Positions 46,918-59,830 of a stretch of 64,000 nucleotides of DNA are shown here, in pieces. How positions within the stretch are numbered: position 1 is the first letter of the stretch; every line of letters begins with the position of its first letter. Under the pieces are notes generated by a model that saw only the letters and a program-made list of their open reading frames with translations, was not told where the DNA came from and did no database searches. The translations under genes were made by a program, and so were the position numbers. The stretch is from Candidatus Omnitrophota bacterium (GTDB lineage: Bacteria; Omnitrophota; Gorgyraeia; 2-01-FULL-45-10), in the NCBI GenBank assembly GCA_028699255.1, contig JAQVUX010000003.1, positions 146,654 to 210,653 of the forward strand. The letters are read 5' to 3'.

Positions 46918-49725
46918 ATGGAACACATGGAAAAGAACTTTATTCTCATAAAAGGCGCCAGGGAGCATAATCTAAAAAATATAGATATTACCATACCCAG
47001 GGACAAGCTTGTAGTTGTGACCGGGCTATCCGGCTCCGGGAAATCGTCGCTCGCTTTCGACACCATATATGCCGAAGGCCAGCGCAGATACGTCGAGTCC
47101 CTTTCGAGTTACGCGCGTCAATTCTTAGATCAGCTCCAGAAGCCGGACGTCGATTACATCGACGGGCTTTCTCCCGCCATCAGTATCGAACAGAGGACGG
47201 CCGGCTCCAATCCCAGATCCACCGTAGGAACGCAAACGGAGATACATGATTATCTGCGCCTTCTGTATGCCAGCGTCGGGACACCTCACTGCCCGAAGTG
47301 CGGGAAAGCTATAACCAGACAGTCGGCGCAGGAGATAGTCGACCAGGTGCTCAAAGCCGCCGCCGGTGAAGAGTCGATACTTGTACTCGCCCCGCTCATA
47401 CGCGGCCGAAAAGGCGAATACAGGGAGTTGTTTAAAAAAGCGAGCGCCGACGGATTTGTCCGGGTAAGAGTGGACGGTAAAGTTTGCGAACTTGCCAACG
47501 CCATAAAATTGGACAAAAATAAAAAGCATGATATCGAAGTAGTTGTCGATCGTCTGGTAATAAAAGAGAATGTTAAAAAACGGCTTACCGATTCCATAGA
47601 ATCCGCCCTCGAGGCCGGAGGCGGCCTTGTGATAGTTAATTTTCAAAAACACAATACGAGCCACGACGTCCTTTTCAACGAACACTATGCCTGCGCCGAT
47701 TGCGGCATCAGCCTGGAAGAATTGACGCCGAGAATATTTTCATTCAATTCGCCGTATGGCGCCTGCCCGGAATGCGACGGGCTCGGTAACAAGATGGAGA
47801 TAGACCCGGATCTCGTTATAACCGATAAGACGAAGCCGGTTATCGATTCCGTCGATGCCTGGAGGCGCGGCGGGAAGGGGCTCTATCTTTATTACAGGCG
47901 GCTTATGCGTTCGCTCGCCCAGGAACACGGCTTCGACGTCCAGACGCCCTTTAAGGATCTTCCTAAAGATATTAAAAAATTAGTGCTTTACGGGGAAGGT
48001 AAAGGAAAAGGGTGGGGCGTATATGAAGGAGTCATACCTAACCTGGAAAGGCGGTTCCGCGAGACGGAAAGCGAATTCATAAAGACTGAAATCGGCAAAT
48101 ATATGTCCGTCCTGCCATGCCCTGTTTGCAACGGGAATAAACTGAAGCCCGAATCTCTCTCTGTCACGGTAGGCGGCAGGAATATCGCCGAGGTTTCCGC
48201 CATGGCGATAAAGGGACTGCGAACATTTATCGCGGGGCTTGATCTGACTCCGACGCAGGAGAATATAGCGCGTCAGGTGCTGAAGGAGATATCCTCGCGC
48301 CTGCAATTCATGATAGACGTTGGCCTCGACTACCTTACGCTCGACCGGCGCAGTTATACATTATCCGGCGGTGAGGCCCAGCGCATACGGCTTGCTACAC
48401 AGATAGGCTCCGGACTGGTTGGAGTCATCTATATCCTCGATGAGCCGAGCATAGGCTTACACCAGCGGGACAATTCGAAGCTTCTCGATACTCTTATTAA
48501 ATTGCGCGATCTCGGTAATACTCTCATCGTGGTTGAGCACGACGAGGCGACCATCCGGAAGGCCGACCACATAATCGATCTCGGCCCGGGCGCCGGTGAG
48601 CACGGCGGCCGCGTGATAGCGGAAGGTGGACTTAAGGACATACTCGCATCGAAAGACTCTCTCACGGGGAAATATCTGCGCGGTGAGTACCGGATAAATG
48701 CTCCATCCGGGCGGCGCAAGCCCGATAAGAAAAAGATACTGCGCATAATCGGCGCGCGGGAACACAACCTGAAGACTATAGATGTGGAGATACCGCTGGG
48801 CCTGTTCGTATGCGTAACGGGCGTGTCGGGTTCCGGCAAGAGCACACTTGTGGATGACATCCTGTATAAAACGCTGGCCAAAAAATTCTACCATTCCAAG
48901 GAACGGCCCGGAGAACATAAAAGGATAGAAGGCATACAGTTCATAGATAAGGTTGTTGTCATCGACCAGTCGCCCATCGGCAGGACGCCTCGCTCCAATC
49001 CCGCTACATACACGGGCGCGTTCTCATTCGTCAGGGATCTATTCTCTAAACTTCCGGAATCTAAGATACGGGGGTACAAACCGGGCCGTTTCAGTTTCAA
49101 CGTCAAGGGCGGCAGGTGTGAAGCGTGCATGGGCGACGGCATAAGAAAGATAGAAATGCACTTTCTGCCGGATATATACGTCCAATGTGAAGTATGTAAG
49201 GGCAAACGTTTCAACGCACAGACGCTCGAAGTGAAATTTAAGGGCAAATCGATCGCGGATGTCCTCGATACATCCATTGAGGAAGCGATGGAGCTTTTCG
49301 CGAACATCCCTTCGGTTAAAAATAAACTTAAAACCCTTAACGAGGTGGGCTTAGGTTATGTGCGCCTGGGGCAGTCGGCCACGACCCTTTCCGGCGGAGA
49401 AGCGCAGAGGATAAAGCTTGCCACCGAGCTGTCGAAGTCGGCGACGGGCAGGACCTTCTATATACTCGACGAGCCCACGACAGGGCTCCACTTTGCGGAC
49501 ATAGACAAATTGTTGTCCGTATTGCAGGCGCTTGTGCGCGGCGGCAATACGGTGCTGGTCATAGAGCATAATCTCGATGTGATAAAAACCTCCGACTACA
49601 TCATTGACCTCGGCCCGGAGGGCGGCGACGAAGGCGGGAGAGTAGTTGCGAGCGGTTCGCCCGAGGAAATAGCGAATAATGAGAGATCATATACCGGGCA
49701 GTATCTGAAGGAAACGTTGTGCTAA
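46918..49725 (+). CDS. uvrA: Excinuclease ABC subunit A
   Basis: Two ABC modules (GLSGSGKSS / LSGGEAQR; GVSGSGKST / LSGGEAQR) plus zinc-finger Cys clusters. Confidence 0.95.
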
Positions 49726-52073
49726 CGTATAGCCTGAAAAGAAAAATGCTGTTTTTTTTGGTGATCGCGGCGATCTTTCTGCAGGCACATTCGGTATCGG
49801 CGCAGAATATTGAAGACGGGGATATCGTTATCGCCAAAGATGCTTTTAAGAACGGGCTTTATGATATAGCCGGCGAGCGGTTTGAAGCCATATTGCGTAA
49901 TTACCCCGATACCGCGCGCGTATATGAGATACATTCGCTTCTGGGTAAATGCTACTATTATCAGAATAAACTTTCCCGGGCGTCGTATGAATTTGACATT
50001 GTCATTAACGCGCCCGCGGGAAGCGATTCCCAGGATGAGGCCCTGTACTGGTCCGGAGAGATATCGCTCAAGTCGGGCGAACTTAAAAAAGCGCTCGGTT
50101 TTTATCAACAGACCATAGACGCGTTTCCGTCATCGAAATATATAAGCTACGCTCTTTATTCAAAAGGATGGTGTTATTATAAGTTAGGCCTTCTTGAAGA
50201 CGCCGTTTCCTGTTTCAAAGACACCGCCGCGAAGTATCCGCTTGAAAAAGCGGCACCCGATGCGCAGTTTTTGGCAGGTGAATGCCATTACCTGATGGCC
50301 AGATATGCCCCTGCCGAAAAGGAACTCAAAGAGTTTACGGAAAAGTTCCCGCTTTCCGGGAAGACGGCCGAGGCTTATTATCTTTTGGGCGATACGAGTT
50401 TCTATCTTTCGAAATATACCGACGCCGTAAACTATTTCCAGCGCGCTCTCGCGATATCACCCACAGCGGCATGGGCGCCGTTTGCCGAATATCGTATCGC
50501 CGCCGCGCTTTACCAGGCCGGTGATTACGCCGCGAGCATCAAAGGTTACAGGAAATGCCTATCCAGGCGTTCAAGCGGCCTCATCGAAGGCTCGATCCTC
50601 CTCGGGCTTGCCCGTAATTACGAGAAGACCGGCATGACCGTGGACGCTATGGAGGCCTATGACGGCGTGATAGCGATGCGTTCCAGAGGCGATGTTGTGG
50701 CGGAGGCATATTACCGAAAAGCGCGCCTTTTATCGGATCTCGGCAGGCACGACGAGGCTGAAAGGCTTTGCAGGGAGGGCATAGAGAAATTCCCGGATTC
50801 CAAATATACCGATAACCTGCACAGTGAATTGGCCCGATCGTATTCGATGCAGGATGCGAAGCAGGGGGAGGCCATAAAAGAGTTCCGCCGCGTGTGCGAT
50901 GTGTCGAAGGATCCGTCTTTGATCGCGGATGCGCTTGTCGGGATGGGCGACATATATCTGGCGGCCAAAGATGACGGTAAAGCGATAGCGAGTTACGACA
51001 TGGCCCTGAACAGGTATCCCGACAGTCGCGTGGCCGCCTACGCGCAGATACGGCTCGGGGATGTTTTTTTAGAGACGGGTAACCTCGACCAGGCGGCCCT
51101 GGCGTATCAGAGCGCGCTTGCCAATTTCCCGGATACTTCGTTTAAGGAGAAGGTGCTTCTTTCGCTCGCCATCGTCGATTTTCGTAAGGGTGATTTCGAA
51201 CGGGCCGTGTCAGGGTTTACAAATTTATTCAAAGCGTTTCCCGGCAATAAAAACAATGCGCGCATCAGGCTTTATCTGGCTGATTCTATGTATAACGCAG
51301 GAGATTACCCAGCCGCTCTGGCGCTCTACAAAGAGATAGAAAAAGATGCTCCCAGCGTGGAGCTTAAAGCGGCGGCCGGTTATCAGGCCGGGTGGAGTCT
51401 TTTAAATATGGGCAGGGATTCTCAGGCTATCGATGAGTTTGGCAGGCTCTTGAAAAATTATCCGCTTTCCGGCGTGGCTTACGATGCAAGATTTGAACTT
51501 GCGGAATATTATGCCTCGAAGGGAAAATATGATACGGCACGGGAATACTATTATTCGATAGCGAAGGCTATCCCTGCCGTAGATCTTACCGAAAAGGCTC
51601 TTTACGAGGCGGCGCTCACATACTGCAGGCAAAATAGGACGCAGGAGGCTGTTGACGGGATCGATGAGCTGGCGGTAAAATTCCCGGGATCAGTTTACGC
51701 AAGGAACGGTTACAGGAAGATAGCGAATATTAAAAAAGATTCCGGTGATTTTACCGGGTCGGTTGTTTATCTGCGAAAAGCGCTCGGTAGCGAGAACAAT
51801 GAATTTAACGCGCAGGTACAGTACGAGATTGCCGAAGCTATAGAGAAGGTAGGGGCTCTTCAGGGGGCCGCCGCGGAATATCTTAAGGTTCCGGAGCTGT
51901 ATCCAAAGGGCGCTTTCTGGGCCGTCCGGGCGCAGTTGAGATCCGCCCAGATTTTTGAAAAAACGGGCGCGTTTGGCGAGGCGGGAAAATTATATGAGAA
52001 GTTGGCTGATATGGATGTAGAGGAATCTTCGTTCGCGAAGGAACGGTTACAGAAGTTAAGGAAAGCCAAATAG
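49719..52073 (+). CDS. Large tetratricopeptide-repeat protein with a signal peptide (YbgF/CpoB-like TPR, greatly expanded)
   Basis: Many TPR-like helical repeats throughout, e.g. [28 protein letters not shown]. The start could be the ATG at 49746 ([19 protein letters not shown]). Confidence 0.65.
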
Positions 52074-52074
52074 A

Positions 52075-52126
52075 ATAACCGCGTAAGGTTATCTGTGGGT
52101 CAATGCATGGTTAACCTGAGCGGTTA
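52075..52126. repeat. Inverted pair of TAACCGCGTAGGTTA-family motifs (ATAACCGCGTAAGGTTAT-N17-TTAACCTGAGCGGTTAG) upstream of tolQ/exbB
   Basis: Seen directly. Confidence 0.65.
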
Positions 52127-52143
52127 GCCGAATAGGAGGGTGT

Positions 52144-52776
52144 ATGTGGGATCTGATCAATAAGGGCGGACCGATGATGTACCTGATAATATTAGCGTCG
52201 ATCCTGGCGTTAGGTGTCGTCATAGACCGGATATATAATTTGCGCAAGGCAAAGATAGACGCGGATAAGTTTATGGATGGCGTTACCGCCGTTTTAAAAA
52301 GGAATAAAGTTATCGAGGCGATAGAGATGTGCAATAAGACTCCCGGGCCGATAGCGCATATAATAAAGGCGGGCATACTGAAACACGACAGATCGAAGCC
52401 GGAGATAAAGGAGGCGGTCGAAGAGGCGGCAGGGCTCGAGATACCGCGCCTTGAGAAGCACCTGCCGATACTTGCTACCATCGCGCACATAGCTCCGCTC
52501 CTCGGGCTTTTGGGTACCGTAACGGGCATGATAAAATCGTTCCAGGTAATACAGGCGAAGGCGCTTGTCCTGGCTCCGGTAAATCCCGGCGATCTGGCCG
52601 GCGGCATATGGGAAGCGCTCCTTGCGACGGTGGCGGGGCTTGCGGTCGCTATTCCGACTTACGTCGCTTATAATTACCTGACGAGCCAGGTTGATACGTT
52701 AGTATATGACATGGAGAGAAGCGCCACTGACCTGGTGAACCTGCTTTCGTCCCGGAGGGATACGTATGAAGTTTAA
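52144..52776 (+). CDS. MotA/TolQ/ExbB proton-channel protein
   Basis: Three TM helices with the conserved TolQ/ExbB C-terminal helices (APLLGLLGTV.GMI). Confidence 0.8.
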   Translation: MWDLINKGGPMMYLIILASILALGVVIDRIYNLRKAKIDADKFMDGVTAVLKRNKVIEAIEMCNKTPGPIAHIIKAGILKHDRSKPEIKEAVEEAAGLEIPRLEKHLPILATIAHIAPLLGLLGTVTGMIKSFQVIQAKALVLAPVNPGDLAGGIWEALLATVAGLAVAIPTYVAYNYLTSQVDTLVYDMERSATDLVNLLSSRRDTYEV

Positions 52777-53158
52777 GAGGCGCCCGAAGCCGGAACATGG
52801 GCTGATAGAGATGACGCCGCTTATCAACGTCTTCTTCCTGCTTTTTATATTTTTCGCGTTCACATCCAGTTTCATATTTCAACCGGGGATAAAGGTAAAT
52901 CTTCCTAAGGCCGTAACGAGTGAAGTCGTCCAGCAGGACAGCGCGGTTATAGTTGTTACCGGCGACGACAAGATATATCTGAATGACCGGGAGATATCAC
53001 ACGACGAGCTTTTGTCCAATCTACGGCTGATGGCAAAAGAAAATAGGCCGCTCCTGATAAAGGCCGACAACCATGCCTCACTCGGCAGGATAGTGGAGGT
53101 CTGGGATATGTGCAGGCGCGAGGGCGTGTCGCAGGCGAACATCGCCACTAACAGGTAG
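52766..53158 (+). CDS. ExbD/TolR biopolymer transport protein
   Basis: Single TM helix (MTPLINVFFLLFIFF) and a periplasmic ExbD domain (...IKADNHASLGRIVEVWDMCRREGV). Confidence 0.8.
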   Translation: MKFKRRPKPEHGLIEMTPLINVFFLLFIFFAFTSSFIFQPGIKVNLPKAVTSEVVQQDSAVIVVTGDDKIYLNDREISHDELLSNLRLMAKENRPLLIKADNHASLGRIVEVWDMCRREGVSQANIATNR

Positions 53159-53163
53159 GATCT

Positions 53164-53580
53164 TTGATGGCAGGCGTAAAATTTATAACGAAAGTTTTTA
53201 AGGACGAAACCCGCAGAATATTCGTGATGGCCATAATGGCATCGCTTTTGTTTCACGTATTCTGGTTATGTGCCGTAAGGATTGTGTCTAAGCCGGACGA
53301 TGACGGCAGGCTGAAATTTTCCAAAGTGTCATTTTTAGGCCCGCTTTTAAACACGAGCTCCATGGAACTGCAGTCACGGCCTAAAGAACGCTCGTTCCTC
53401 GAGAAGAGATATTTTGATGCCGCCAAACGCATCCCAATAGTTTTTATTCCGAACGCGGATATATACGCCGATAGGTACGAACCGGCCAACGATGCCTATC
53501 ACTTGCGGGACGAAAGGATAACGGCGGCTATAGATGAGGCGCTTATAGGGGAAAAGTTGGGGTTGTCTTCAGACGAATAA
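53164..53580 (+). CDS. Hypothetical membrane-anchored protein occupying the TonB/TolA position, but without Pro-rich or TonB C-terminal features
   Basis: One TM helix at residues ~18-38 and a ~100 aa soluble region with no recognisable motif. Confidence 0.4.
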   Translation: MMAGVKFITKVFKDETRRIFVMAIMASLLFHVFWLCAVRIVSKPDDDGRLKFSKVSFLGPLLNTSSMELQSRPKERSFLEKRYFDAAKRIPIVFIPNADIYADRYEPANDAYHLRDERITAAIDEALIGEKLGLSSDE

Positions 53581-53596
53581 TAGTTCTGTCGCGCCC

Positions 53597-53866
53597 TTGA
53601 CTATTAATATAATTATGATAAAATTGGACATAGGTACTTTAGTATTCTTTTATACGCTATTTTCAGCTGTACTTATCCTGTTATTTTGGGTATTTGCAGG
53701 GTACAAGAATTCGGCAGTGCGAAAAGCGCGGGATACGGATTACATGTGGCGATGCTCGGTATGCTCGCATTCATACGTAGATTCGAAACATGATGAGATG
53801 TCCGTTTGCCCTTTATGCGGCAGTTATAATAAAAAGGATGCGATTGAAAAGGAGGCAGGTAAATGA
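53597..53866 (+). CDS. Small membrane protein with a C-terminal zinc-ribbon (CSVCSH...CPLCG)
   Basis: TM helix followed by CxxC-x16-CxxC. Start could be the ATG at 53615. Confidence 0.4.
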   Translation: MTINIIMIKLDIGTLVFFYTLFSAVLILLFWVFAGYKNSAVRKARDTDYMWRCSVCSHSYVDSKHDEMSVCPLCGSYNKKDAIEKEAGK

Positions 53867-54063
53867 TTACGGAGATAGGCATTACCGCCGGAGATATATG
53901 GCATTATCTTGATGAAAACGGGAAGAGCTCGTTGTCCCAGATCGTAAAAGGCATAGATACCGAAAAAGAAAGACTCCTGATGAGCATAGGATGGCTTGCC
54001 AGAGAAGGGCATGTCATAGTTGAAAAGGCCGGTCAGGATTATCAGATATATTTGAGAAGATAG
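53863..54063 (+). CDS. Small winged-helix protein (DUF2582-like wHTH, 66 aa)
   Basis: ITAGDIWHYLDENGKSSLSQIVKGI...SIGWLAREGHV resembles the small wHTH DUF2582 family. Start overlaps the upstream ORF (ATGA). Confidence 0.45.
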   Translation: MITEIGITAGDIWHYLDENGKSSLSQIVKGIDTEKERLLMSIGWLAREGHVIVEKAGQDYQIYLRR

Positions 54064-54133
54064 CCCCGTCCGGAGCGAAAACCGGGGGCGGGACGATTTA
54101 CCTGACTCAAACAATAGTAAATCGGAGGTAACT

Positions 54134-54406
54134 ATGGAAGAGAAGAAGAGCGCGCGTGACGATGAACAGGTTCCCATAGTTGCTCCTTTAAAGGTGTTGG
54201 GCCAGAAGACGATAAACAAACGGTTCGGATGGTGGTCCGCGGTCGTCCTTCTGGAGAGTTACGGCAGGAAACAGGTGTGTTTCTACCTGTGGCAGAAGAA
54301 GGAAGACGGCGGTTGGAAGCGCAAGCAGAAGTTTGCGGTGCATAATCAGGAAGACTGGGAGCTGATCCAGAACGCCGTGGTTGGAATGATCGGCGAATTG
54401 ACCTGA
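54134..54406 (+). CDS. Hypothetical protein (90 aa)
   Basis: ORF with RBS ggaggt; no recognisable motif. Confidence 0.35.
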   Translation: MEEKKSARDDEQVPIVAPLKVLGQKTINKRFGWWSAVVLLESYGRKQVCFYLWQKKEDGGWKRKQKFAVHNQEDWELIQNAVVGMIGELT

Positions 54407-54454
54407 TGAAGTTTCAACGCAATCCGCCTTTTCTCGATCTCTTACCCCCGCCTT

Positions 54455-54799
54455 ATGGCAAATCGTAAAACTATTATGAGCCGAGATTTTTGCATAATCC
54501 TGGCGCAATGCGCCTCACAAAAAGAAGCGGATGCCATCCGGTCTGCGTTGTTAAAGGGCCGGTTAGCGGCGTGCGTTAATATATTGAAAGGTGTTGATTC
54601 GAGATTTTGGTGGAATGGCAAGGTCGACAGGGCGAAGGAAGTCCTTCTGATGGCCAAGTCTCGTAGGACAAATTTTAACCGGATAGCCAAAGAAATAAAA
54701 CGCCTGCATAGTTATGATGTTCCCGAGATAATTGCTATCCCGATAATAGCGGGAAGCGGGGATTATTTGGGATGGATCAGGAAGAATACGAAGGCGTGA
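54455..54799 (+). CDS. cutA: Divalent-cation tolerance protein CutA
   Basis: CutA1 features (CVNIL.GV.S.FWW.G, YDVPEIIAIPII.GSGDYL.W). Start is the ATG at 54455 or 54476. Confidence 0.7.
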   Translation: MANRKTIMSRDFCIILAQCASQKEADAIRSALLKGRLAACVNILKGVDSRFWWNGKVDRAKEVLLMAKSRRTNFNRIAKEIKRLHSYDVPEIIAIPIIAGSGDYLGWIRKNTKA

Positions 54800-54921
54800 G
54801 GCGAAAATTTCGGAGGTTGATTGATGTTCCGAAAGCACTCTATTTAATCTTACTTAAATCAGAGATTTAAGTAAGATTGTTGTTTCGATTTCGATGCGAA
54901 AATTTCAAGAGAAATTTTCAG

Positions 54922-54997
54922 GGGGCAGTAGCTCAGCTGGGAGAGCACCACGTTCGCAACGTGGGGGTCGTGGGTTCGAATCCCATCTGCTCCACCA
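54922..54997 (+). tRNA. tRNA-Ala (anticodon CGC)
   Basis: Folded by hand: acceptor GGGGCAG/CUGCUCC with the G3:U70 Ala identity pair, D-arm GCUC-AGCUGGGA-GAGC, anticodon stem CCACG/CGUGG, loop UUCGCAA, T-arm GUGGG-UUCGAAU-CCCAU, and an encoded CCA. Confidence 0.9.
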
Positions 54998-55360
54998 TAC
55001 TCTGAAAACTTTTCGAAGAAAGTTTTCAGGTCCTGGCGTTTCAGATACTTCGATTTTGCTATGCAAAATCGAAGGACTCAGTAAACTTTTCGAAGAAGAT
55101 TTTCAGGTCCTGGCGTTTAAGATATACCGATTTTTCTCTGAAAAATCGGTATACTCAAAACTTCTTGAAAGGAAATTTTAAGGGCCTGGGGTTTGATAAG
55201 TTTCGATTTTTTCTCTGAAAAAATCGAAGTACTCTGAAAATCTGTCGAAGAAGATTTTCAGGTCCTGGCGTTTAAGATACTTCGATTTTCCTCCGGAAAA
55301 TCGAAGGACTCAGTAAACTTTTCGAAGAAGATTTTCAGGTCCTGGAGTCTAAGGACTCAA
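54998..55360. repeat. Tandem array of five ~80 bp repeats, each containing the hairpin CGATTTT-N8-AAAATCG and the conserved GATTTTCAGGTCCTGGCGTTTAAGATAC block; repeat-like sequence continues upstream of the tRNA at 54840-54921
   Basis: Seen directly. Unit starts are near 54998, 55078, 55158, 55238 and 55312, and the last unit is truncated at the 55368 gene start. Sequence just 5' of the tRNA (ttcgatttcgatgcgaaaatttcaagagaaattttcaggggg) mimics a unit. Confidence 0.75.
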
Positions 55361-55367
55361 AAAAACT

Positions 55368-56846
55368 ATGAAATTGTTTTTTGTATTAGCGCTTTTGTTC
55401 CTCACTTCAACCGTTTTTGCCGAAGATATGAAAAAATCCGACCTTGCAGGCACATGGTACCCGGCGGATAAGGCAGAACTGGCCGACTTGCTCGGCTCAT
55501 ACCTTGATTCCGCGAAACCGATAAAGATAGAGGGCCAGGTACTGGCCATTATTTCTCCTCATGCCGGTTATCAATTTTCCGGCCCTGTGGCGGCTTACGG
55601 TTTTAAGGTCGTGAATGCCGGTAGTATTAAAACGGTTATCGTTATAGGGTTCAGCCATCGAAGGCGTTTCGACGGGATATCGGTTTACGCTAAAGGCGGA
55701 TGGAGCACGCCGCTCGGCGACATAGCTATCGACGAGAAACTTGCCGCGCAGATAGTTTCGAAAAATAAACGTTTGCGTTTTGAGCCGGGGCTTTTCGATG
55801 AAGAGAACTCCGTCGAGATGCAGATGCCGTTTATAGAACTTGCCTTTAAAGGTGCGCGGGTAGTGCCGGTAGCTTTCGGTACGCAGGATTACGGCGACGC
55901 TGAGATATTGGCCGACGCGCTTGCCACCGTCCTCAAGGATAGGAACGATGTGCTCATAGTCGCCTCCACGGACCTTTCGCATTTCCATCCTTACCAGGAC
56001 GCAAATGCCATCGATAAAAATCTTATAAAGATATTGGAAGAGATGAAGGCGAGAAAACTTTACGATGCGGCCATCATGGGAGAATGCGAACTTTGCGGTA
56101 TGATGCCTGTTACGGCGACACTTCTTACGGCGGAAAAACTCGGCGTCGGCGATATCGAGGTATTGAAATACGCCAATTCCGGGGATACCTTTGGCGATAA
56201 GAAGCAGGTTGTCGGATATTTAAGCGCGGCAATCTATAAAAAAGGAACGCGGGATACGGATAACGGGCAGAGGCAGGCCGGGAAGACTATGTTGAACGAC
56301 GCCCAGCGCAAGCGGCTATTACAGATAGCGCGAGAGTCGATAATCGGCTATGTGAAGAACGGCAAGCGGATGGAGTTTGCGGAGGATGACCCGGTTCTTA
56401 ATAAAGAGATGGGCGCGTTCGTTACATTGCATGAAGGCGGCCAGTTGCGCGGGTGCATCGGTAATATGTCAGGCCAGGGGGCTTTGTATAAAACGGTGGC
56501 GGATATGGCGATAGAGGCGGCAACGGGCGATCCTCGTTTTCCCACCCTGACCGCGGCTGAGATAGGCAGGATCAAGATAGAAATATCTGCGCTGTCGCCT
56601 TTAAAAAAGGTTGCGGGCTATAAAGATGTAAAAATACCCGGCGACGGCGTTGTGGTAAAATCGGGATCCCGCAGCGGTGTATTCCTGCCGCAGGTGGCGG
56701 ATGAGACCGGATGGGGCAGGGACGAGTTTCTCTCGTATCTTTGCGCTCATAAAGCGGGTTTGCCGCCGTCTGCCTGGAAAGATCCGAAGACGGAGATTTA
56801 CGTGTTTTCTGCGGAAGTTTTTGGAGAAAAGGAGGATGGGCGATGA
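55368..56846 (+). CDS. Fusion protein: N-terminal signal peptide + Memo-like domain (AmmeMemoRadiSam system protein B) + AMMECR1 domain (system protein A)
   Basis: MKLFFVLALLFLTSTVFA signal-like segment. Memo motifs AGTWYP, SPHAGYQFSG and DLSHFH. AMMECR1 hallmark GAFVTLHEGGQLRGCIG. Confidence 0.7.
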   Translation: MKLFFVLALLFLTSTVFAEDMKKSDLAGTWYPADKAELADLLGSYLDSAKPIKIEGQVLAIISPHAGYQFSGPVAAYGFKVVNAGSIKTVIVIGFSHRRRFDGISVYAKGGWSTPLGDIAIDEKLAAQIVSKNKRLRFEPGLFDEENSVEMQMPFIELAFKGARVVPVAFGTQDYGDAEILADALATVLKDRNDVLIVASTDLSHFHPYQDANAIDKNLIKILEEMKARKLYDAAIMGECELCGMMPVTATLLTAEKLGVGDIEVLKYANSGDTFGDKKQVVGYLSAAIYKKGTRDTDNGQRQAGKTMLNDAQRKRLLQIARESIIGYVKNGKRMEFAEDDPVLNKEMGAFVTLHEGGQLRGCIGNMSGQGALYKTVADMAIEAATGDPRFPTLTAAEIGRIKIEISALSPLKKVAGYKDVKIPGDGVVVKSGSRSGVFLPQVADETGWGRDEFLSYLCAHKAGLPPSAWKDPKTEIYVFSAEVFGEKEDGR

Positions 56847-57769
56847 AGAATAAAGGCTTGGTCATAGCGATAATAGCGGTGATAGCGGTGCTGGGCATCG
56901 TATTAATAGGAAGGTCCTGCGCCCGCCCGAATACGGCGAAAAAGACAGGCGTCCCGGCTAATGTTAATACTCCAAAGGCGGCTCCTGTCGCATCCGTAGC
57001 TAAAACATTTTCCAAAGGCATGGGCGGACTGACCGTAAAAGTTAAAAATTCCACTAATAAGCCCCAGTATATTAAGATGAAGGCTTTCATGGTCGAGAGT
57101 GGTAATTCCAGTGTATTCGCCGCCGCGTTTGGCACCGAGCGCATGCAGATATTGCCTGCGGGCACATATGATATCGAAATAGACACAATACCCGCTAAAA
57201 TATATAAGAATATATCCGTAAATAACGGTAAGGAGACGGTAAAAGATCTCGGTACAATAAGCGGGTCTATCAATGTGAAAGCGTTAAATTCAAAGAAGAG
57301 GGATGCGTCCGTACTGTCGAAGGTTCTGTGCGCCAAAACCGGGCTGATAGTTACTACTCTGCCTGCCAACCGTCCTACGGAGATAATGCCCGGAGTTTAT
57401 GATGTAGAGATAGACACATTGCCCCGCCAGGTAAAGAAAGATATAAAGGTGTCTGCCGGACAAGAAACGGTTATAGATCTTGGTATTGTTTCGGGCTCGC
57501 TTTTAGTTAAAGCTATTGACGCAAACGGTAAAGAGGCGCGTCTTAATGTTCGTATAAAAAATCCATCGAACAATCAGTTCGTTACCTCATCATTCACGAA
57601 CAAGGCTATTGAGGTAGGCCCCGGTGCATATGACGTTGAAGTGTTGTCCTCTCCGGCGCAGGTAAAGAATGGGGTAAAAATTAACCCGGGTGAGGAGACG
57701 ATCATCGAAATAGCAGTCCAGACTCAGTCTTTACCAGAACCGGCCGTTGCCGCAAAAAAGAAGAAATGA
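56843..57769 (+). CDS. Membrane-anchored protein with three ~90 aa beta-sandwich-like internal repeats (PEGA/carboxypeptidase-regulatory-like?)
   Basis: N-terminal TM segment (LVIAIIAVIAVLGIVLIG). The three repeats are LPAGTYDIEIDTIPAKI..., MPGVYDVEIDTLPRQV... and GPGAYDVEVLSSPAQV.... Start overlaps the upstream gene (ATGA). Confidence 0.5.
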   Translation: MKNKGLVIAIIAVIAVLGIVLIGRSCARPNTAKKTGVPANVNTPKAAPVASVAKTFSKGMGGLTVKVKNSTNKPQYIKMKAFMVESGNSSVFAAAFGTERMQILPAGTYDIEIDTIPAKIYKNISVNNGKETVKDLGTISGSINVKALNSKKRDASVLSKVLCAKTGLIVTTLPANRPTEIMPGVYDVEIDTLPRQVKKDIKVSAGQETVIDLGIVSGSLLVKAIDANGKEARLNVRIKNPSNNQFVTSSFTNKAIEVGPGAYDVEVLSSPAQVKNGVKINPGEETIIEIAVQTQSLPEPAVAAKKKK

Positions 57770-58497
57770 GTAGATTCTTTGTTCCTCCCGAGGCGGTAAA
57801 AGGAAGCAGTATAGTTATCGGAGGTAAAGAGGCGCACCACATCCTCGACGTGATGCGCCTGAAGGTGTCCGATACTGTCGTTACATTCGACGGCACGGGC
57901 AAAGAGTATAAAGGCGTGATACGGGAGGTATCCCGCAATTCGCTTACCGTAGAAATAAAAGATGTTCGCATTCCCGCCGGCGGCGAGTCAGGCCGCATAA
58001 CGCTTCTGCAGGCTATGCCCAAGAAAGAGAAGATGGACTATATCGTCGAAAAGGCGACGGAGCTGGGGGTTCATGCAATAGTGCCGGTCATTACCGCGAG
58101 GACGATACCGGATTGGAGCGAATCCAAGAAGAAGGCGCAGTCTGAAAGGTGGGCCAAGATAGCCAGAGAAGCGGCAAAGCAATGCTCCCGGCTGGATATA
58201 CCGACTATAGCACCGATATCGGATTTTGCGGACTCGATAAAGACATATGCCGATTTTGACATGAAGATGATAGCCGTTTTAAACGATGAGACCGTATCTG
58301 TAAAAAGCGCAATGGCCGGTTTTACTACCGGCAAGATCGCGATCGCGATAGGCCCGGAAGGTGATTTTACGGCGGAAGAAGTCTCGATGGCCAAGGATTG
58401 CGGCTTTAAGCCTATAAGTTTGGGCTCCAGGGTACTTAAAAGCGACACGGCGGGACTTGCCTTACTGGCAATTTTAAATTATGAACTCTCAAATTAA
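57766..58497 (+). CDS. rsmE: 16S rRNA (uracil1498-N3)-methyltransferase
   Basis: MSRFFVPPE N-terminus, PUA-like domain and SPOUT C-terminal domain (IAIGPEGDFT.EE). Confidence 0.8.
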   Translation: MSRFFVPPEAVKGSSIVIGGKEAHHILDVMRLKVSDTVVTFDGTGKEYKGVIREVSRNSLTVEIKDVRIPAGGESGRITLLQAMPKKEKMDYIVEKATELGVHAIVPVITARTIPDWSESKKKAQSERWAKIAREAAKQCSRLDIPTIAPISDFADSIKTYADFDMKMIAVLNDETVSVKSAMAGFTTGKIAIAIGPEGDFTAEEVSMAKDCGFKPISLGSRVLKSDTAGLALLAILNYELSN

Positions 58498-59830
58498 CGA
58501 AAAAAAGAGATTTTACATACATACCCTTGGCTGTAAGGTCAATCAGTATGAATCGCAGGCCATGAGGGAGATACTCCTGGGCGCCGGTTTTACGGAGTGT
58601 CTCTCCAAAGATATGGCGGATATATACATAATCAATACATGCACTGTAACCCAGCACGCCGACCGGGAGTCGCGTTATCTGGCCGGTATGTTCCACAGGA
58701 CCAATCCCTTGGCCAAGATCGTGGTGACGGGTTGTTATGTGGAGCGCAATGCGGACGAGATATCATCCTTGCCGGGCGTTTCGCATATAGTAAAGAACGA
58801 TAAGAAAAACCGCATCGTCGATATACTGAATGACCTCGGAGGTGCGACCTCGGAGGTCGAACGCGGTTCGCATCTCACGGTTACCGGGTTCAAGGGCCAC
58901 ACGAAGGCTTTTGTCAAGATCCAGGATGGTTGCGAAAACAGGTGTTCGTATTGCAAAGTGCCGCTGGTAAGGGGCGTCCTTAAATCCAAACCGATCGACG
59001 TTATAGTTAAAGAAGTGGCCGGGCTTGTCGCGAACGGTTTTAAAGAGATTGTGCTTACCGGGATCTGTCTCGGGGCCTGGGGCAGGGACATATTTCCACC
59101 GGAGATATCCAATAGCGTAGGATTAAAGGCGCCGGATCTGACGGACGTATTAAAAGCTCTGGAGCGCATCAGCGGCAACTTCCGGATCCGTATCAGTTCC
59201 ATAGAGATGAAGTACGTTACGGACGAAATGATAGCGTTCATAGCTGGCAGTAAAAAAGTATGCAGGCATTTGCACATACCTCTGCAATCCGGCGATGACG
59301 AAATACTTAAGCGTATGAACAGGCCGTATACATGCGCTCAATACCTTGGGCTTATAGAAAAGCTGAAGCATTCCATAAAAGATATAGCGATATCTACGGA
59401 TGTGATGGTTGCGTTCCCGGGCGAGACGGACGCGAATTTCATCAATACCATGAATTTTCTGAAAGCGGTCTCGCCGGCCAGGACGCATATTTTTACCTAC
59501 AGTAAGCGCGACGGCACATCCGCCGCGGCTTTTGACGGCGAGGTAAACGAGGTTCTCGCGCGGAAGAGGTATTACAATCTCAGGACGATCGCGATTATGC
59601 TGTCGTATATCTATCGCGCGAAGTTTATCGGCAGGACGCTGGATGTGCTGGTCGAATCGAAGCGTGACCGCCAAACAGGGTTACTCAGCGGATATTCAGA
59701 CAATTATATAAAGGTAATGTTCGCCGGAGACGACGGTGCTATGCGAACCATAGCGCCGGTGAGGATAGATGAGATGAGTTTAGTGTACACCAGAGGGGCG
59801 TATGGGCCTGCCTCAGATGTTAAGGTTTAA
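58481..59830 (+). CDS. mtaB: Radical-SAM methylthiotransferase (MiaB/RimO/MtaB family; MtaB-like), carrying an in-frame 29 bp repeat insertion in the interdomain linker
   Basis: MTTase N-domain Cys residues (TLGCKVNQYES, NTCTV), radical-SAM CSYCKVP, and a TRAM-like C-terminus. The repeat at 58832-58860 encodes DLGGATSEVE. Confidence 0.75.
   Translation: MNSQINEKKRFYIHTLGCKVNQYESQAMREILLGAGFTECLSKDMADIYIINTCTVTQHADRESRYLAGMFHRTNPLAKIVVTGCYVERNADEISSLPGVSHIVKNDKKNRIVDILNDLGGATSEVERGSHLTVTGFKGHTKAFVKIQDGCENRCSYCKVPLVRGVLKSKPIDVIVKEVAGLVANGFKEIVLTGICLGAWGRDIFPPEISNSVGLKAPDLTDVLKALERISGNFRIRISSIEMKYVTDEMIAFIAGSKKVCRHLHIPLQSGDDEILKRMNRPYTCAQYLGLIEKLKHSIKDIAISTDVMVAFPGETDANFINTMNFLKAVSPARTHIFTYSKRDGTSAAAFDGEVNEVLARKRYYNLRTIAIMLSYIYRAKFIGRTLDVLVESKRDRQTGLLSGYSDNYIKVMFAGDDGAMRTIAPVRIDEMSLVYTRGAYGPASDVKV

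What the first reader, a model, noticed from the sequence alone, without database searches (positions are those of the whole stretch)
55368..56846. Fused Memo-like + AMMECR1 protein carrying an N-terminal signal peptide
Memo (AmmeMemoRadiSam system protein B) and AMMECR1 (protein A) normally occur as separate cytoplasmic proteins alongside a radical-SAM activase. Here they are fused into one 492 aa polypeptide in the order B then A, preceded by a strongly signal-peptide-like N-terminus (MKLFFVLALLFLTSTVFA|ED). No radical-SAM partner is adjacent; the nearby mtaB is a methylthiotransferase, not the PflA-like activase. The gene is translationally coupled (ATGA) to a membrane-anchored protein with three beta-sandwich repeats. 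A periplasmic or exported Memo-AMMECR1 fusion would be an unusual variant of a system whose function is still unknown.
Basis: partly seen in the sequence, partly recalled or inferred. Interest (0 to 1): 0.6.

Follow-up and report, generated by a model that had tools for sequence, protein, structure and literature searches.

The report
Exported Memo–AMMECR1 fusion enzyme, common type
This Omnitrophota gene encodes a fused Memo–AMMECR1 enzyme with a genuine, conserved secretion signal; such exported fusions are widespread rather than rare, and in related bacteria the radical-SAM partner also carries an export signal, which suggests this poorly understood system works outside the cytoplasm.

Summary
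ORF 55368-56846 (+) encodes 492 aa with a Memo domain (residues 25-287) and an AMMECR1 domain (318-485). An 18-residue Sec-type leader (MK / hydrophobic core / V-F-A|ED) precedes them.

- **Leader:** 108 of the 120 closest homologs have it. The predicted -1 residue is Ala in 101 of those 108.
- **Not unusual:** The fusion was reported in 2007. 112 of 134 distant representative fusions, and most species loci from about a dozen phyla, carry leaders.
- **Radical SAM partner:** No partner lies in the 64-kb window. Sister Omnitrophota have tRNA-Ala, then a TIGR04337 radical SAM enzyme, the fusion, a CcdA/DsbD-like membrane protein, RsmE and MtaB. Their radical SAM enzyme also has an N-terminal leader, Tat-like in other phyla.
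- **This lineage:** The radical SAM and CcdA-like genes are gone from the locus. A 77-nt repeat array and a clade-specific membrane-anchored protein with three beta-sandwich domains take their places.
- **Active sites:** All putative catalytic residues are conserved.

Best reading: a periplasmic metal- and thiol-dependent enzyme from an exported branch of the AmmeMemoRadiSam system, a branch I found no description of. The substrate is unknown. The gene is an ordinary member of its clade; the export of the system is the interesting part.

The parts
55368..56846 (+). Gene for the 492-aa pre-protein: signal peptide, Memo domain (AmmeMemoRadiSam protein B), linker, AMMECR1 domain (protein A)
   Evidence: ORF. 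Pfam and NCBIfam hits. AF2 model with pLDDT 91 matches MEMO1 (TM 0.83) and PH0010 (TM 0.78).
55368..55421 (+). Predicted Sec/SPase I signal peptide, residues 1-18 (MK | LFFVLALLFL | TSTVFA), with cleavage VFA|ED
   Evidence: 108 of 120 homologs have a leader. The predicted -1 residue is Ala in 101 of 108, and -3 is A/S/V in 88 of 108. The n-region is net positive in 100 of 108. Leader identity is 26% against 65% for the mature N-terminus. Leaderless fusions start 6-12 residues before the AG-W/F-YP motif, where the predicted mature end lies.
55440..56228 (+). Memo domain (residues 25-287) with conserved metal-site motifs: PHAGY (H65), SH (H97), TDLSH (D202, H205), CG (C243)
   Evidence: Pfam PF01875 and TIGR04336. 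Invariant columns in alignments A1 and A3. Alignment to human MEMO1 PHAGY / SHH / DxxH.
56229..56318 (+). Inter-domain linker (residues 288-317), disordered in the model
   Evidence: pLDDT is below 50 for residues 295-306. pTM of 0.62 indicates an uncertain domain arrangement.
56319..56822 (+). AMMECR1 domain (residues 318-485) with LRGCIG (C363) and DPRF (D388, R390) motifs
   Evidence: PF01871 and TIGR04335. Invariant columns. The RGChG and DxRa motifs are defined in PMC2034487. PDB matches 1vaj, 1zq7 and 1wsc.
56843..57769 (+). ATGA-coupled gene for a 308-aa protein: TM helix (residues 4-23), K/R-rich disordered linker, three beta-sandwich domains. Omnitrophota-specific family.
   Evidence: ORF and overlap. 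No Pfam hit above threshold, only weak TTR-like, CarboxypepD_reg and DUF2846 hits. AF2 model and Foldseek. 78 homolog clusters. 41% identity to the L082 neighbour. Topology is ambiguous.
57766..58497 (+). RsmE 16S rRNA methyltransferase, ATGA-coupled to the previous gene; part of the same tight gene string
   Evidence: Pfam and NCBIfam. Overlap. The fusion-RsmE-MtaB order is conserved in Omnitrophota loci and one locus labelled Planctomycetia.
58481..59830 (+). MtaB methylthiotransferase (a radical SAM enzyme, but not the TIGR04337 partner)
   Evidence: TIGR01579 at 406.6 bits against a cutoff of 357. Only CxxxCxxC ORF in the window.
54922..54997 (+). tRNA-Ala(CGC), the conserved upstream landmark of the locus
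   Evidence: ARAGORN. The same tRNA precedes the radical SAM-fusion pair in L004-L007 and L012, and directly precedes the fusion in L001 and L003.
54999..55353 (+). 77-nt hairpin-rich tandem repeat (4.6 copies) occupying the position where sister lineages carry the radical SAM gene
   Evidence: TRF. RNA fold z-score -7.3. No Rfam family. Locus comparison.

Best explanation
The gene encodes a Sec-exported pre-protein. SPase I is predicted to cleave it after Ala18 (VFA|ED). The mature protein of about 474 aa is a periplasmic two-domain enzyme. A Memo domain with an intact His/His/Asp/His/Cys metal site is tethered by a flexible linker to an AMMECR1 domain with its catalytic-looking Cys363 (RGCIG) and DxRF motif.

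It belongs to a large, widespread branch of the AmmeMemoRadiSam system whose components carry export signals. I found no description of this branch. In sister Omnitrophota the operon is tRNA-Ala | TIGR04337 radical SAM (leader) - fusion (leader) - CcdA/DsbD-like thiol-reductant conduit - RsmE - MtaB. In this window's subclade the radical SAM and CcdA-like genes are missing from the locus. A repeat array sits in the first position and a membrane-anchored triple beta-sandwich protein in the second.

Inferred mechanism: the two fused domains carry out consecutive metal-dependent (Fe or Cu redox) and thiol-dependent steps on one envelope-located substrate. Here they act without an adjacent radical SAM step, as Memo and AMMECR1 do in eukaryotes.

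Shown: the domains, residue conservation, leader conservation, gene contexts and co-variation of leaders.
Inferred: actual export and cleavage, metal and thiol chemistry, independence from radical SAM, and the nature of the substrate, which is unknown.
For: - Domains and folds.
- Leader: a canonical n/h/c structure conserved in 108 of 120 close homologs, with Ala at -1 in 101 of 108. Its sequence is poorly conserved (26%) compared with the mature protein (65%). The h-region of about 10-12 residues is too short for a TM helix.
- Start codon: in most homologs no Met exists at the mature start. Position +1 is Met in only 10 of 108, so a downstream start cannot explain the family.
- Distribution: leader-bearing fusions are the majority in 134 distant representatives (112 with a leader) and occur across about a dozen phyla.
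- Periplasmic context from neighbours: CcdA/DsbD_2 lies directly downstream in L004-L007 (E 7e-16 to 4e-26), with homologs also in L009 and L012. DsbA-like plus MauE lie upstream in L008 and L010.
- Partner enzyme: verified TIGR04337 at 351-395 bits against a cutoff of 220. It carries Tat-like RRxFLK or Sec-like leaders. Leader presence co-varies with the fusion's: 24/7/0/4, Fisher p = 0.006, and about 27/3/0/5 after manual correction.
- Active-site residues are invariant in 97 clade members despite the loss of the adjacent radical SAM gene.
Against: - No SignalP or experimental data were available. The leader call rests on rules and comparative conservation.
- Met21 sits at the predicted mature N-terminus in this gene and its closest relatives, so a leaderless product from an internal start cannot be excluded for this particular gene.
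- The radical SAM partner could be encoded elsewhere in the genome. Only 64 kb of a 219-kb contig was visible.
- The conserved fusion-RsmE-MtaB string could hint at a cytoplasmic RNA-related role.
- The domain arrangement is uncertain (pTM 0.62), so juxtaposition of the two active sites is not shown.
- The downstream beta-sandwich protein may face the cytoplasm. The flank C-terminal to its TM helix is more positive in 54 of 61 family members. A same-compartment partnership with the fusion is therefore unproven.
Confidence: 0.75

Rival explanations
1. The protein is a periplasmic metal-handling protein (Cu/Fe binding, chaperone or detoxification) rather than a substrate-modifying enzyme. It would be analogous to the proposed metal-binding roles of human MEMO1, perhaps linked functionally to the CutA1 gene upstream.
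For: The MEMO1-type metal ligands are conserved. The closest solved structures are copper- and iron-bound MEMO1 (7l5c, 7kq8). CutA1 lies just upstream, across the tRNA, in the window, L001 and L082. The thiol-redox neighbours in sister lineages would also suit metal-thiolate chemistry.
Against: This does not explain the obligate fusion to AMMECR1 or the persistent radical SAM association in related lineages. CutA1 is separated by a tRNA gene and a repeat array, and it is not found near the fusion outside the close clade. No metal transporter or sensor was found among the recurrent neighbour families.
Confidence: 0.12
2. The protein is cytoplasmic or membrane-tethered on the cytoplasmic side. 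It would work with RsmE and MtaB in an RNA base modification, as predicted for AMMECR1 in 2007. The hydrophobic N-terminus would be an anchor, or would not be translated because of an internal start at Met21.
For: The fusion-RsmE-MtaB order is conserved in 9-10 loci. RNA modification was predicted for AMMECR1 (PMC2034487). Met21 sits exactly at the predicted mature start. The triple-fusion protein P0236 has a TM helix whose charge bias suggests a cytoplasmic body.
Against: The leader has a short h-region and an AxA site conserved in 101 of 108 homologs. Most homologs lack any Met at the mature start. The synteny with RsmE and MtaB is confined to Omnitrophota plus one locus labelled Planctomycetia, and it is absent in the other phyla. 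Periplasmic thiol-redox neighbours and Tat-like leaders on the partner point to the other side of the membrane.
Confidence: 0.08
3. The gene is a decaying remnant of the three-component system, left behind after the radical SAM and CcdA-like genes were lost, and has no function of its own.
For: The radical SAM and DsbD_2 genes are absent from the locus and from the 64-kb window. A repeat array occupies the former radical SAM position.
Against: The reading frame is intact. 97 clade members at 58-73% identity keep every putative catalytic residue invariant, and they keep the leader. The gene is tightly coupled to conserved downstream genes.
Confidence: 0.03

Closest known systems
AmmeMemoRadiSam three-gene system (NCBIfam/TIGRFAMs TIGR04335 protein A, TIGR04336 protein B, TIGR04337 radical SAM enzyme)
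   Same: Both halves of the protein score far above the curated cutoffs for proteins B and A. In sister Omnitrophota and many other phyla the TIGR04337 enzyme is encoded next to the fusion.
   Different: Here B and A are fused and carry a Sec signal peptide. No TIGR04337 gene lies in the 64-kb window. The family descriptions, as I recall them, do not mention export.
Human MEMO1 (PDB 3bcz, 7kq8, 7l5c)
   Same: Same fold (Foldseek TM 0.82-0.83, rmsd 2.2-2.7 A). The PHAGY, SH and DxxH motifs and the CG cysteine are conserved.
   Different: MEMO1 is a stand-alone cytosolic eukaryotic protein at about 23% identity, with no signal peptide and no AMMECR1 fusion.
Archaeal AMMECR1 proteins PH0010, MM0484, ST0229 (PDB 1vaj, 1zq7, 1wsc)
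   Same: 36-40% identity in the structural alignments, same fold (TM 0.63-0.78), and conserved RGCIG and DxRF motifs.
   Different: These are stand-alone cytoplasmic archaeal proteins. The RNA-modification role predicted for them (PMC2034487) is hard to reconcile with a periplasmic location.
AMMECR1-dioxygenase (Memo) gene fusions noted by Balaji & Aravind 2007
   Same: The same domain combination, so the fusion itself is known.
   Different: The passages of that paper containing 'AMMECR1' (12 of 13 read) do not mention signal peptides or an extracytoplasmic location.
LigB-type class III extradiol dioxygenases (e.g. LigAB 1bou, 2-aminophenol 1,6-dioxygenase 3vsg)
   Same: Distant fold relatives of the Memo domain (Foldseek E 1e-8 to 1e-6).
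   Different: Much weaker similarity (TM about 0.5, 11-15% identity). No evidence of aromatic ring-cleavage context genes here.

Membership tests
AmmeMemoRadiSam system protein B (TIGR04336 / Pfam Memo) | Scores above the curated HMM cutoff over the full domain | tested here: met
   TIGR04336 at 259.5 bits (cutoff 26), residues 23-288 on profile positions 2-269 of 270. PF01875 E 1.6e-61.
AmmeMemoRadiSam system protein B (TIGR04336 / Pfam Memo) | Conserved metal-site residues (MEMO1 His/His/Asp/His/Cys equivalents) | tested here: met
   H65, H97, D202 and H205 are invariant and C243 is invariant or nearly so in A1 and A3. The motifs align to MEMO1. Assignment of these residues as metal ligands comes from my knowledge of the MEMO1 structures.
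AmmeMemoRadiSam system protein A (TIGR04335 / Pfam AMMECR1) | Scores above the curated HMM cutoff; RGChG and DxRa motifs present | tested here: met
   TIGR04335 at 171.5 bits (cutoff 99). PF01871 E 2.7e-52. LRGCIG (C363) and DPRF (D388, R390, F391) are invariant. The motifs are as defined in PMC2034487.
Complete three-component AmmeMemoRadiSam system | A TIGR04337 radical SAM enzyme encoded with proteins A and B | tested here: not met
   The window has no TIGR04337-like ORF. The only CxxxCxxC ORF is MtaB, and phmmer with a verified TIGR04337 protein finds nothing. This covers only 64 kb; the rest of the genome could not be searched.
Complete three-component AmmeMemoRadiSam system | A TIGR04337 enzyme present anywhere in the same genome | not testable with these tools
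   Only +/-10 kb around single proteins can be fetched. None of the top-120 Omnitrophota radical SAM homologs lies on a contig of the same length as the large contigs of the fusion's clade. That comparison is inconclusive.
Sec-dependent type I (SPase I) signal peptide | Positive n-region, hydrophobic h-region of 7-15 residues, small neutral residues at -3 and -1, no positive charge just after the site | tested here: met
   MK / LFFVLALLFL / TSTVFA | ED. Across 108 homologs, -1 is Ala in 101, -3 is A/S/V in 88, and the n-region is net positive in 100.
Sec-dependent type I (SPase I) signal peptide | Prediction by a trained tool (SignalP) or experimental cleavage and export | not testable with these tools
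Lipoprotein (SPase II) signal peptide | Lipobox L-[AS]-[GA]-C at the end of the h-region | tested here: not met
   The leader of the window protein has no Cys. Many distant fusion homologs do have lipobox-like leaders.
Tat signal peptide (for the fusion itself) | Twin-arginine motif S/T-R-R-x-F-L-K | tested here: not met
   The leader has no RR, and the Pfam TAT_signal model does not hit it, even below threshold. The Tat-like motifs are on the radical SAM partners of other lineages.

The most novel reading that the evidence does not exclude
In many diderm bacteria the whole AmmeMemoRadiSam system, including its radical SAM enzyme, works outside the cytoplasm. The TIGR04337 enzyme would be exported folded through Tat (or anchored and exported in Omnitrophota), and the Memo-AMMECR1 fusion through Sec. 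Operon partners would supply reductant and possibly SAM-derived groups: a CcdA/DsbD-like conduit, a Tat-signal DUF362 protein, and a membrane-fused MFS/SpeE-like aminopropyltransferase. That would make TIGR04337 the first extracytoplasmic radical SAM enzyme family I am aware of. It would also redirect the search for the unknown function of Memo and AMMECR1 away from RNA modification and toward an envelope or periplasmic substrate. The window's lineage would be a natural radical SAM-free minimal version.
Probability: 0.35. Interest if true: 0.8.

Novelty: new variant of a known kind. Interest (0 to 1): 0.5.

Why it matters
Memo and AMMECR1 are ancient proteins linked to human disease, and their biochemical function is still unknown. 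The standing prediction for AMMECR1 is an RNA base modification made together with a radical SAM enzyme.

A large, conserved, signal-peptide-bearing branch argues that at least this branch acts on something in the cell envelope. Its thiol-redox and membrane aminopropyltransferase-like neighbours support that view and provide concrete operon partners to test.

If the Tat-like leaders on the radical SAM partner are functional, a new question follows: how would SAM and low-potential electrons reach a periplasmic radical SAM enzyme?

The gene in this window is an ordinary, already-named member of its clade. Its particular value is as a natural variant that keeps the exported fusion but has lost the adjacent radical SAM and CcdA-like genes.

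Tried and rejected
- **Radical SAM partner in the window.** The CxxxCxxC scan and phmmer with a verified TIGR04337 enzyme found only MtaB.
- **Partner on the same contig.** I compared 'longest contig' lengths between the fusion hits and the Omnitrophota radical SAM hits. The only shared value (3576) comes from different sources. This is inconclusive, because only the top 120 hits are listed.
- **Other partners in the window.** DsbD_2, MauE, DsbA, SpeE-like and DUF362 seeds found nothing.
- **Upstream repeat.** Rfam search of the 77-nt repeat gave no family near threshold. The promoter scan found none.
- **308-aa protein.** No Pfam or NCBIfam family is above threshold. Family-wide there are only weak transthyretin-like, CarboxypepD_reg and DUF2846 hits.
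- **Assumed periplasmic partner.** I first assumed the 308-aa protein faces the periplasm alongside the fusion. The charge bias around its TM helix (C-flank more positive in 54 of 61 members) does not support that, so I leave its topology open.
- **Tat leaders.** The Pfam TAT_signal model hit 5 of 9 radical SAM leaders, all below the gathering score (best 21.8 against 22.7 bits). I therefore call them Tat-like, not Tat.
- **Leader classifier.** My first automatic classifier missed weakly hydrophobic Tat h-regions. I refined it and checked the output by eye.
- **Literature.** Burroughs et al. 2019 (JBC 294:10211), the paper most likely to mention exported Memo-AMMECR1 forms, is not held under its DOI, PMC id or PubMed id. 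Nine full-text searches found no paper describing exported AmmeMemoRadiSam components (six of them were aimed at this).
- **Lipoprotein or Tat leader on the window protein.** Rejected: the leader has no Cys and no RR.
Full report
**1. Observation**

The window contains an ATG-initiated ORF at 55368..56846 (+) of 492 aa.
- Pfam finds Memo at residues 25-287 (E 1.6e-61) and AMMECR1 at 318-485 (E 2.7e-52).
- NCBIfam finds TIGR04336 (AmmeMemoRadiSam protein B, 259.5 bits, cutoff 26) and TIGR04335 (protein A, 171.5 bits, cutoff 99).
- An AF2 model (pLDDT 91, pTM 0.62) shows two well-folded domains joined by a disordered linker at residues 295-306.
- The domains match human MEMO1 (TM 0.83) and archaeal AMMECR1 PH0010 (TM 0.78).
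- The N-terminus is MKLFFVLALLFLTSTVFA|EDMKKSDLAGTWYP.
- The stop codon overlaps the next start as ATGA at 56843-56846. The next gene overlaps RsmE in the same way at 57766-57769. RsmE overlaps MtaB by 17 nt.
- The identical protein is in NCBI as 'MAG: AmmeMemoRadiSam system protein B [Candidatus Omnitrophica bacterium]' on a 219-kb contig.

**2. Is the leader a real signal peptide?**

No signal-peptide predictor was available, so I used comparative evidence.
- All 120 closest homologs (60-75% identity, Omnitrophota where the source names an organism) are B->A fusions of about 480-510 aa.
- 108 of them have at least 22 residues before the conserved AG-W/F-YP motif. Most of the rest look truncated or were called from a downstream start.
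- Aligned on that motif, the predicted -1 position is Ala in 101 of 108 and the -3 position is A/S/V in 88 of 108.
- The n-region is net positive in 100 of 108. The uncharged stretch has a median of 17 residues.
- Pairwise identity is 26% in the leader against 65% in the first 60 mature residues.
- Physico-chemical conservation with sequence drift is the expected signature of a Sec/SPase I signal peptide.
- The position after the site is Met in only 10 of 108 homologs. An internal start could therefore give a leaderless product in this gene (Met21), but it cannot explain the family.
- Leaderless fusions in other lineages begin 6-12 residues before the AG motif, where the predicted mature end lies.

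**3. How unusual is it?**

It is not unusual.
- A profile-free scan of 1.84 billion cluster representatives gave 18,256 hits. Nearly all of the best 150 (37-48% identity; a few at 52-61% are fragments) are B->A fusions.
- Of the 134 evaluable full-length fusions, 112 have a hydrophobic leader: 79 Sec/TM-like, 21 lipobox-like and 12 with an RR-type pattern. The remaining 22 have none.
- A scan of one genome per species returned fusions from many lineages. These include Omnitrophota, Desulfobacterota, Planctomycetota, Nitrospiraceae, Acidobacteriota, Zixibacteria, WOR-3, Latescibacterota, Calditrichota, Elusimicrobia, Bacteroidota, Ignavibacteria, KSB1 and Anaerolineae.
- About 57 of these 81 loci carry a leader.
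- The AMMECR1-dioxygenase fusion itself was reported in 2007 (PMC2034487).

**4. The radical SAM partner**

- In the window the only CxxxCxxC ORF is MtaB. A verified TIGR04337 query finds nothing.
- In 36 of the related loci a TIGR04337-like enzyme lies within the roughly 6-kb flanks, often directly adjacent. Seven tested examples score 351-395 bits against a cutoff of 220.
- These enzymes have N-terminal extensions of 30-90 residues ahead of the HMM match.
- In Bacteroidota, Acidobacteriota, Desulfobacterota, Ignavibacteria, Planctomycetota, KSB1 and others, the extensions read as twin-arginine signals, for example SRRDFLK, NKREFLK, TRRTFLN and PRRQFLK followed by an uncharged stretch.
- In Omnitrophota they are Sec-like hydrophobic leaders. 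119 of 120 Omnitrophota radical SAM homologs have one.
- The Pfam TAT_signal model hits 5 of 9 tested leaders, all just below threshold.
- Leader presence on the fusion and on the radical SAM enzyme co-varies. The automated count is 24 both, 7 fusion only, 0 radical SAM only and 4 neither (Fisher p = 0.006).
- Inspection by eye reassigns three of the seven to Tat-like and one to 'neither'.
- One protein (P0236, 838 aa) is a single chain of TM helix + radical SAM + Memo + AMMECR1, so the three activities act on the same side of the membrane in that organism.

**5. Locus history**

- In sister Omnitrophota (L004-L007) the order is tRNA-Ala(CGC) | radical SAM - fusion - DsbD_2/CcdA-like membrane protein (PF13386, E 7e-16 to 4e-26) - RsmE - MtaB.
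- L009 and L012 share the radical SAM-fusion pair, RsmE, MtaB and a phmmer-level DsbD_2 homolog. L012 also has the tRNA.
- L008 and L010 instead have a DsbA-like thioredoxin and MauE/DoxX immediately upstream of the fusion.
- In the window, L001, L003 and L082 no radical SAM or DsbD_2 gene is seen. In the window, L001 and L003 the same tRNA-Ala directly precedes the fusion.
- In the window the spacer is a 77-nt hairpin-rich tandem repeat of 4.6 copies (fold z = -7.3, no Rfam match).
- The most parsimonious reading is that the radical SAM and CcdA-like genes were lost from this locus in the window's lineage.
- Despite that, 97 clade members keep H65, H97, D202, H205, C243, C363, D388 and R390 invariant. 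The protein is therefore under selection.

**6. The downstream gene**

- The 308-aa product has a TM helix (residues 4-23), a disordered K/R-rich linker and three beta-sandwich domains (AF2 pLDDT 86.6). These resemble tandem pilin/CnaB-type domains.
- Sequence hits to transthyretin-like or CarboxypepD_reg models are only weak.
- Its family has just 78 clusters in 5.8 billion proteins. All clusters named by a source are Omnitrophota.
- Nineteen share a contig length with a fusion homolog. Adjacency is seen directly in L001 and L082/L083.
- It is absent in L002 and L003. The pair is thus conserved, but only in one subclade.
- In 54 of 61 members the flank C-terminal to the TM helix is more positive than the N-terminal flank (4.4 against 2.1 K/R). 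The positive-inside rule therefore does not clearly place the beta-sandwich domains in the periplasm, and I leave its topology and role open.

**7. Other recurrent neighbours**

Outside Omnitrophota, 22 loci carry a roughly 700-aa membrane-fused spermidine-synthase-like protein (PF01564; PRK03612/NF037959-like) next to the fusion. Four loci carry a DUF362 protein; the one inspected (L079) begins with a Tat-like leader.

**8. Mechanism**

Shown:
- domain identity
- conserved putative catalytic residues
- a conserved Sec-type leader
- periplasmic thiol-redox neighbours in sister lineages
- leader co-variation with the radical SAM partner

Inferred:
- The protein is exported and cleaved after Ala18.
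- The Memo domain binds Fe or Cu. The ligand equivalence to MEMO1 comes from my knowledge of the 7kq8 and 7l5c structures.
- The AMMECR1 cysteine takes part in thiol chemistry that needs re-reduction in the periplasm, hence the CcdA-like partner in sister lineages.
- The fused domains act in sequence on one envelope-located substrate.
- In this lineage the reaction proceeds without an adjacent radical SAM step.

The substrate is unknown. The 2007 RNA-modification prediction fits poorly with an exported protein. The fusion-RsmE-MtaB synteny is confined to Omnitrophota plus one locus labelled Planctomycetia.

**9. Novelty and limits**

- The gene is an ordinary, already-named member of a large clade, and the fusion is known.
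- Export of the system, and especially of its radical SAM enzyme, is not described in any paper I could search.
- The most relevant paper (Burroughs et al. 2019, JBC) was not readable and may mention it.
- I therefore rate this a new variant of a known kind, with moderate interest.
- Whether this genome encodes a TIGR04337 enzyme elsewhere could not be tested.

Noticed in passing
window 54999-55353: A 77-nt hairpin-rich tandem repeat (4.6 copies, 75% matches) lies between tRNA-Ala(CGC) and the fusion gene. This is the position where sister Omnitrophota carry the TIGR04337 radical SAM gene. The RNA fold z-score is -7.3, there is no Rfam family, and the repeat occurs nowhere else in the window.
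   Followed up: partly
L014, L017, L022, L030, L038, L039, L043, L045, L046, L048, L051, L055, L056, L061, L066, L067, L070, L077, L078, L079, L081 (radical SAM genes next to the fusion): TIGR04337 radical SAM enzymes carry N-terminal twin-arginine-like leaders (e.g. SRRDFLK, NKREFLK). A Tat-exported radical SAM enzyme would be unusual. Pfam TAT_signal hits are just below threshold.
   Followed up: partly
L004:4805-5983, L005:1516-2619, L006:4755-5888, L007:1543-2643, L009:1459-2538, L012:4734-5909; P0271-P0390: Omnitrophota TIGR04337 enzymes have a Sec-like hydrophobic N-terminal leader or anchor without RR (119 of 120 homologs). How an Fe-S enzyme would be matured if exported by Sec is unexplained.
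   Followed up: partly
L004:7450-8109, L005:4226-4837, L006:7610-8263, L007:4177-4815; L008:4878-5986, L010:4899-6004: A DsbD_2/CcdA-like membrane protein is encoded directly downstream of the exported fusion in four Omnitrophota loci, with homologs also in L009 and L012. A DsbA-like thioredoxin plus MauE/DoxX lies directly upstream in two others. Both are periplasmic thiol-redox modules.
   Followed up: partly
L039:3685-5826 (-) and homologs in 21 other loci (e.g. L014, L016, L017, L022, L030, L033, L038, L043, L045): A roughly 700-aa multi-TM protein fused to a spermidine-synthase-like domain (PF01564, PRK03612/NF037959-like) is the second most frequent neighbour of the fusion outside Omnitrophota.
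   Followed up: partly
P0236 (838 aa), P0217 (861 aa): P0236 is a single polypeptide with an N-terminal TM helix, a radical SAM domain, Memo and AMMECR1. P0217 has a roughly 390-residue unassigned N-terminal region ahead of Memo-AMMECR1.
   Followed up: partly
window 56843-57769 and family P0391-P0468: The 308-aa downstream protein family (78 clusters; every member with an organism name is Omnitrophota) has a strongly basic linker after its TM helix. The C-flank is more positive than the N-flank in 54 of 61 members, so its beta-sandwich domains may face the cytoplasm, which would be odd for this fold.
   Followed up: partly
L079:3853-4857; homologs in L017, L026, L062: A DUF362 protein with a Tat-like leader (MRRRAFFKSL...) is encoded near the radical SAM-fusion pair. 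It could be a periplasmic redox partner.
   Followed up: no
window 54894-55181: The 95-aa ORF listed here runs across tRNA-Ala and the repeat array and is spurious. The same artefact extends the called N-terminus of homolog P0119.
   Followed up: yes
window 49719-54799: The upstream block is conserved in L001 and L082: a TPR protein, MotA/ExbB-like and ExbD-like genes, a 138-aa ORF, a small zinc-ribbon protein with a TM helix (seen in the window only), a DUF2582 wHTH, a 90-aa ORF and CutA1. It was not analysed further.
   Followed up: no
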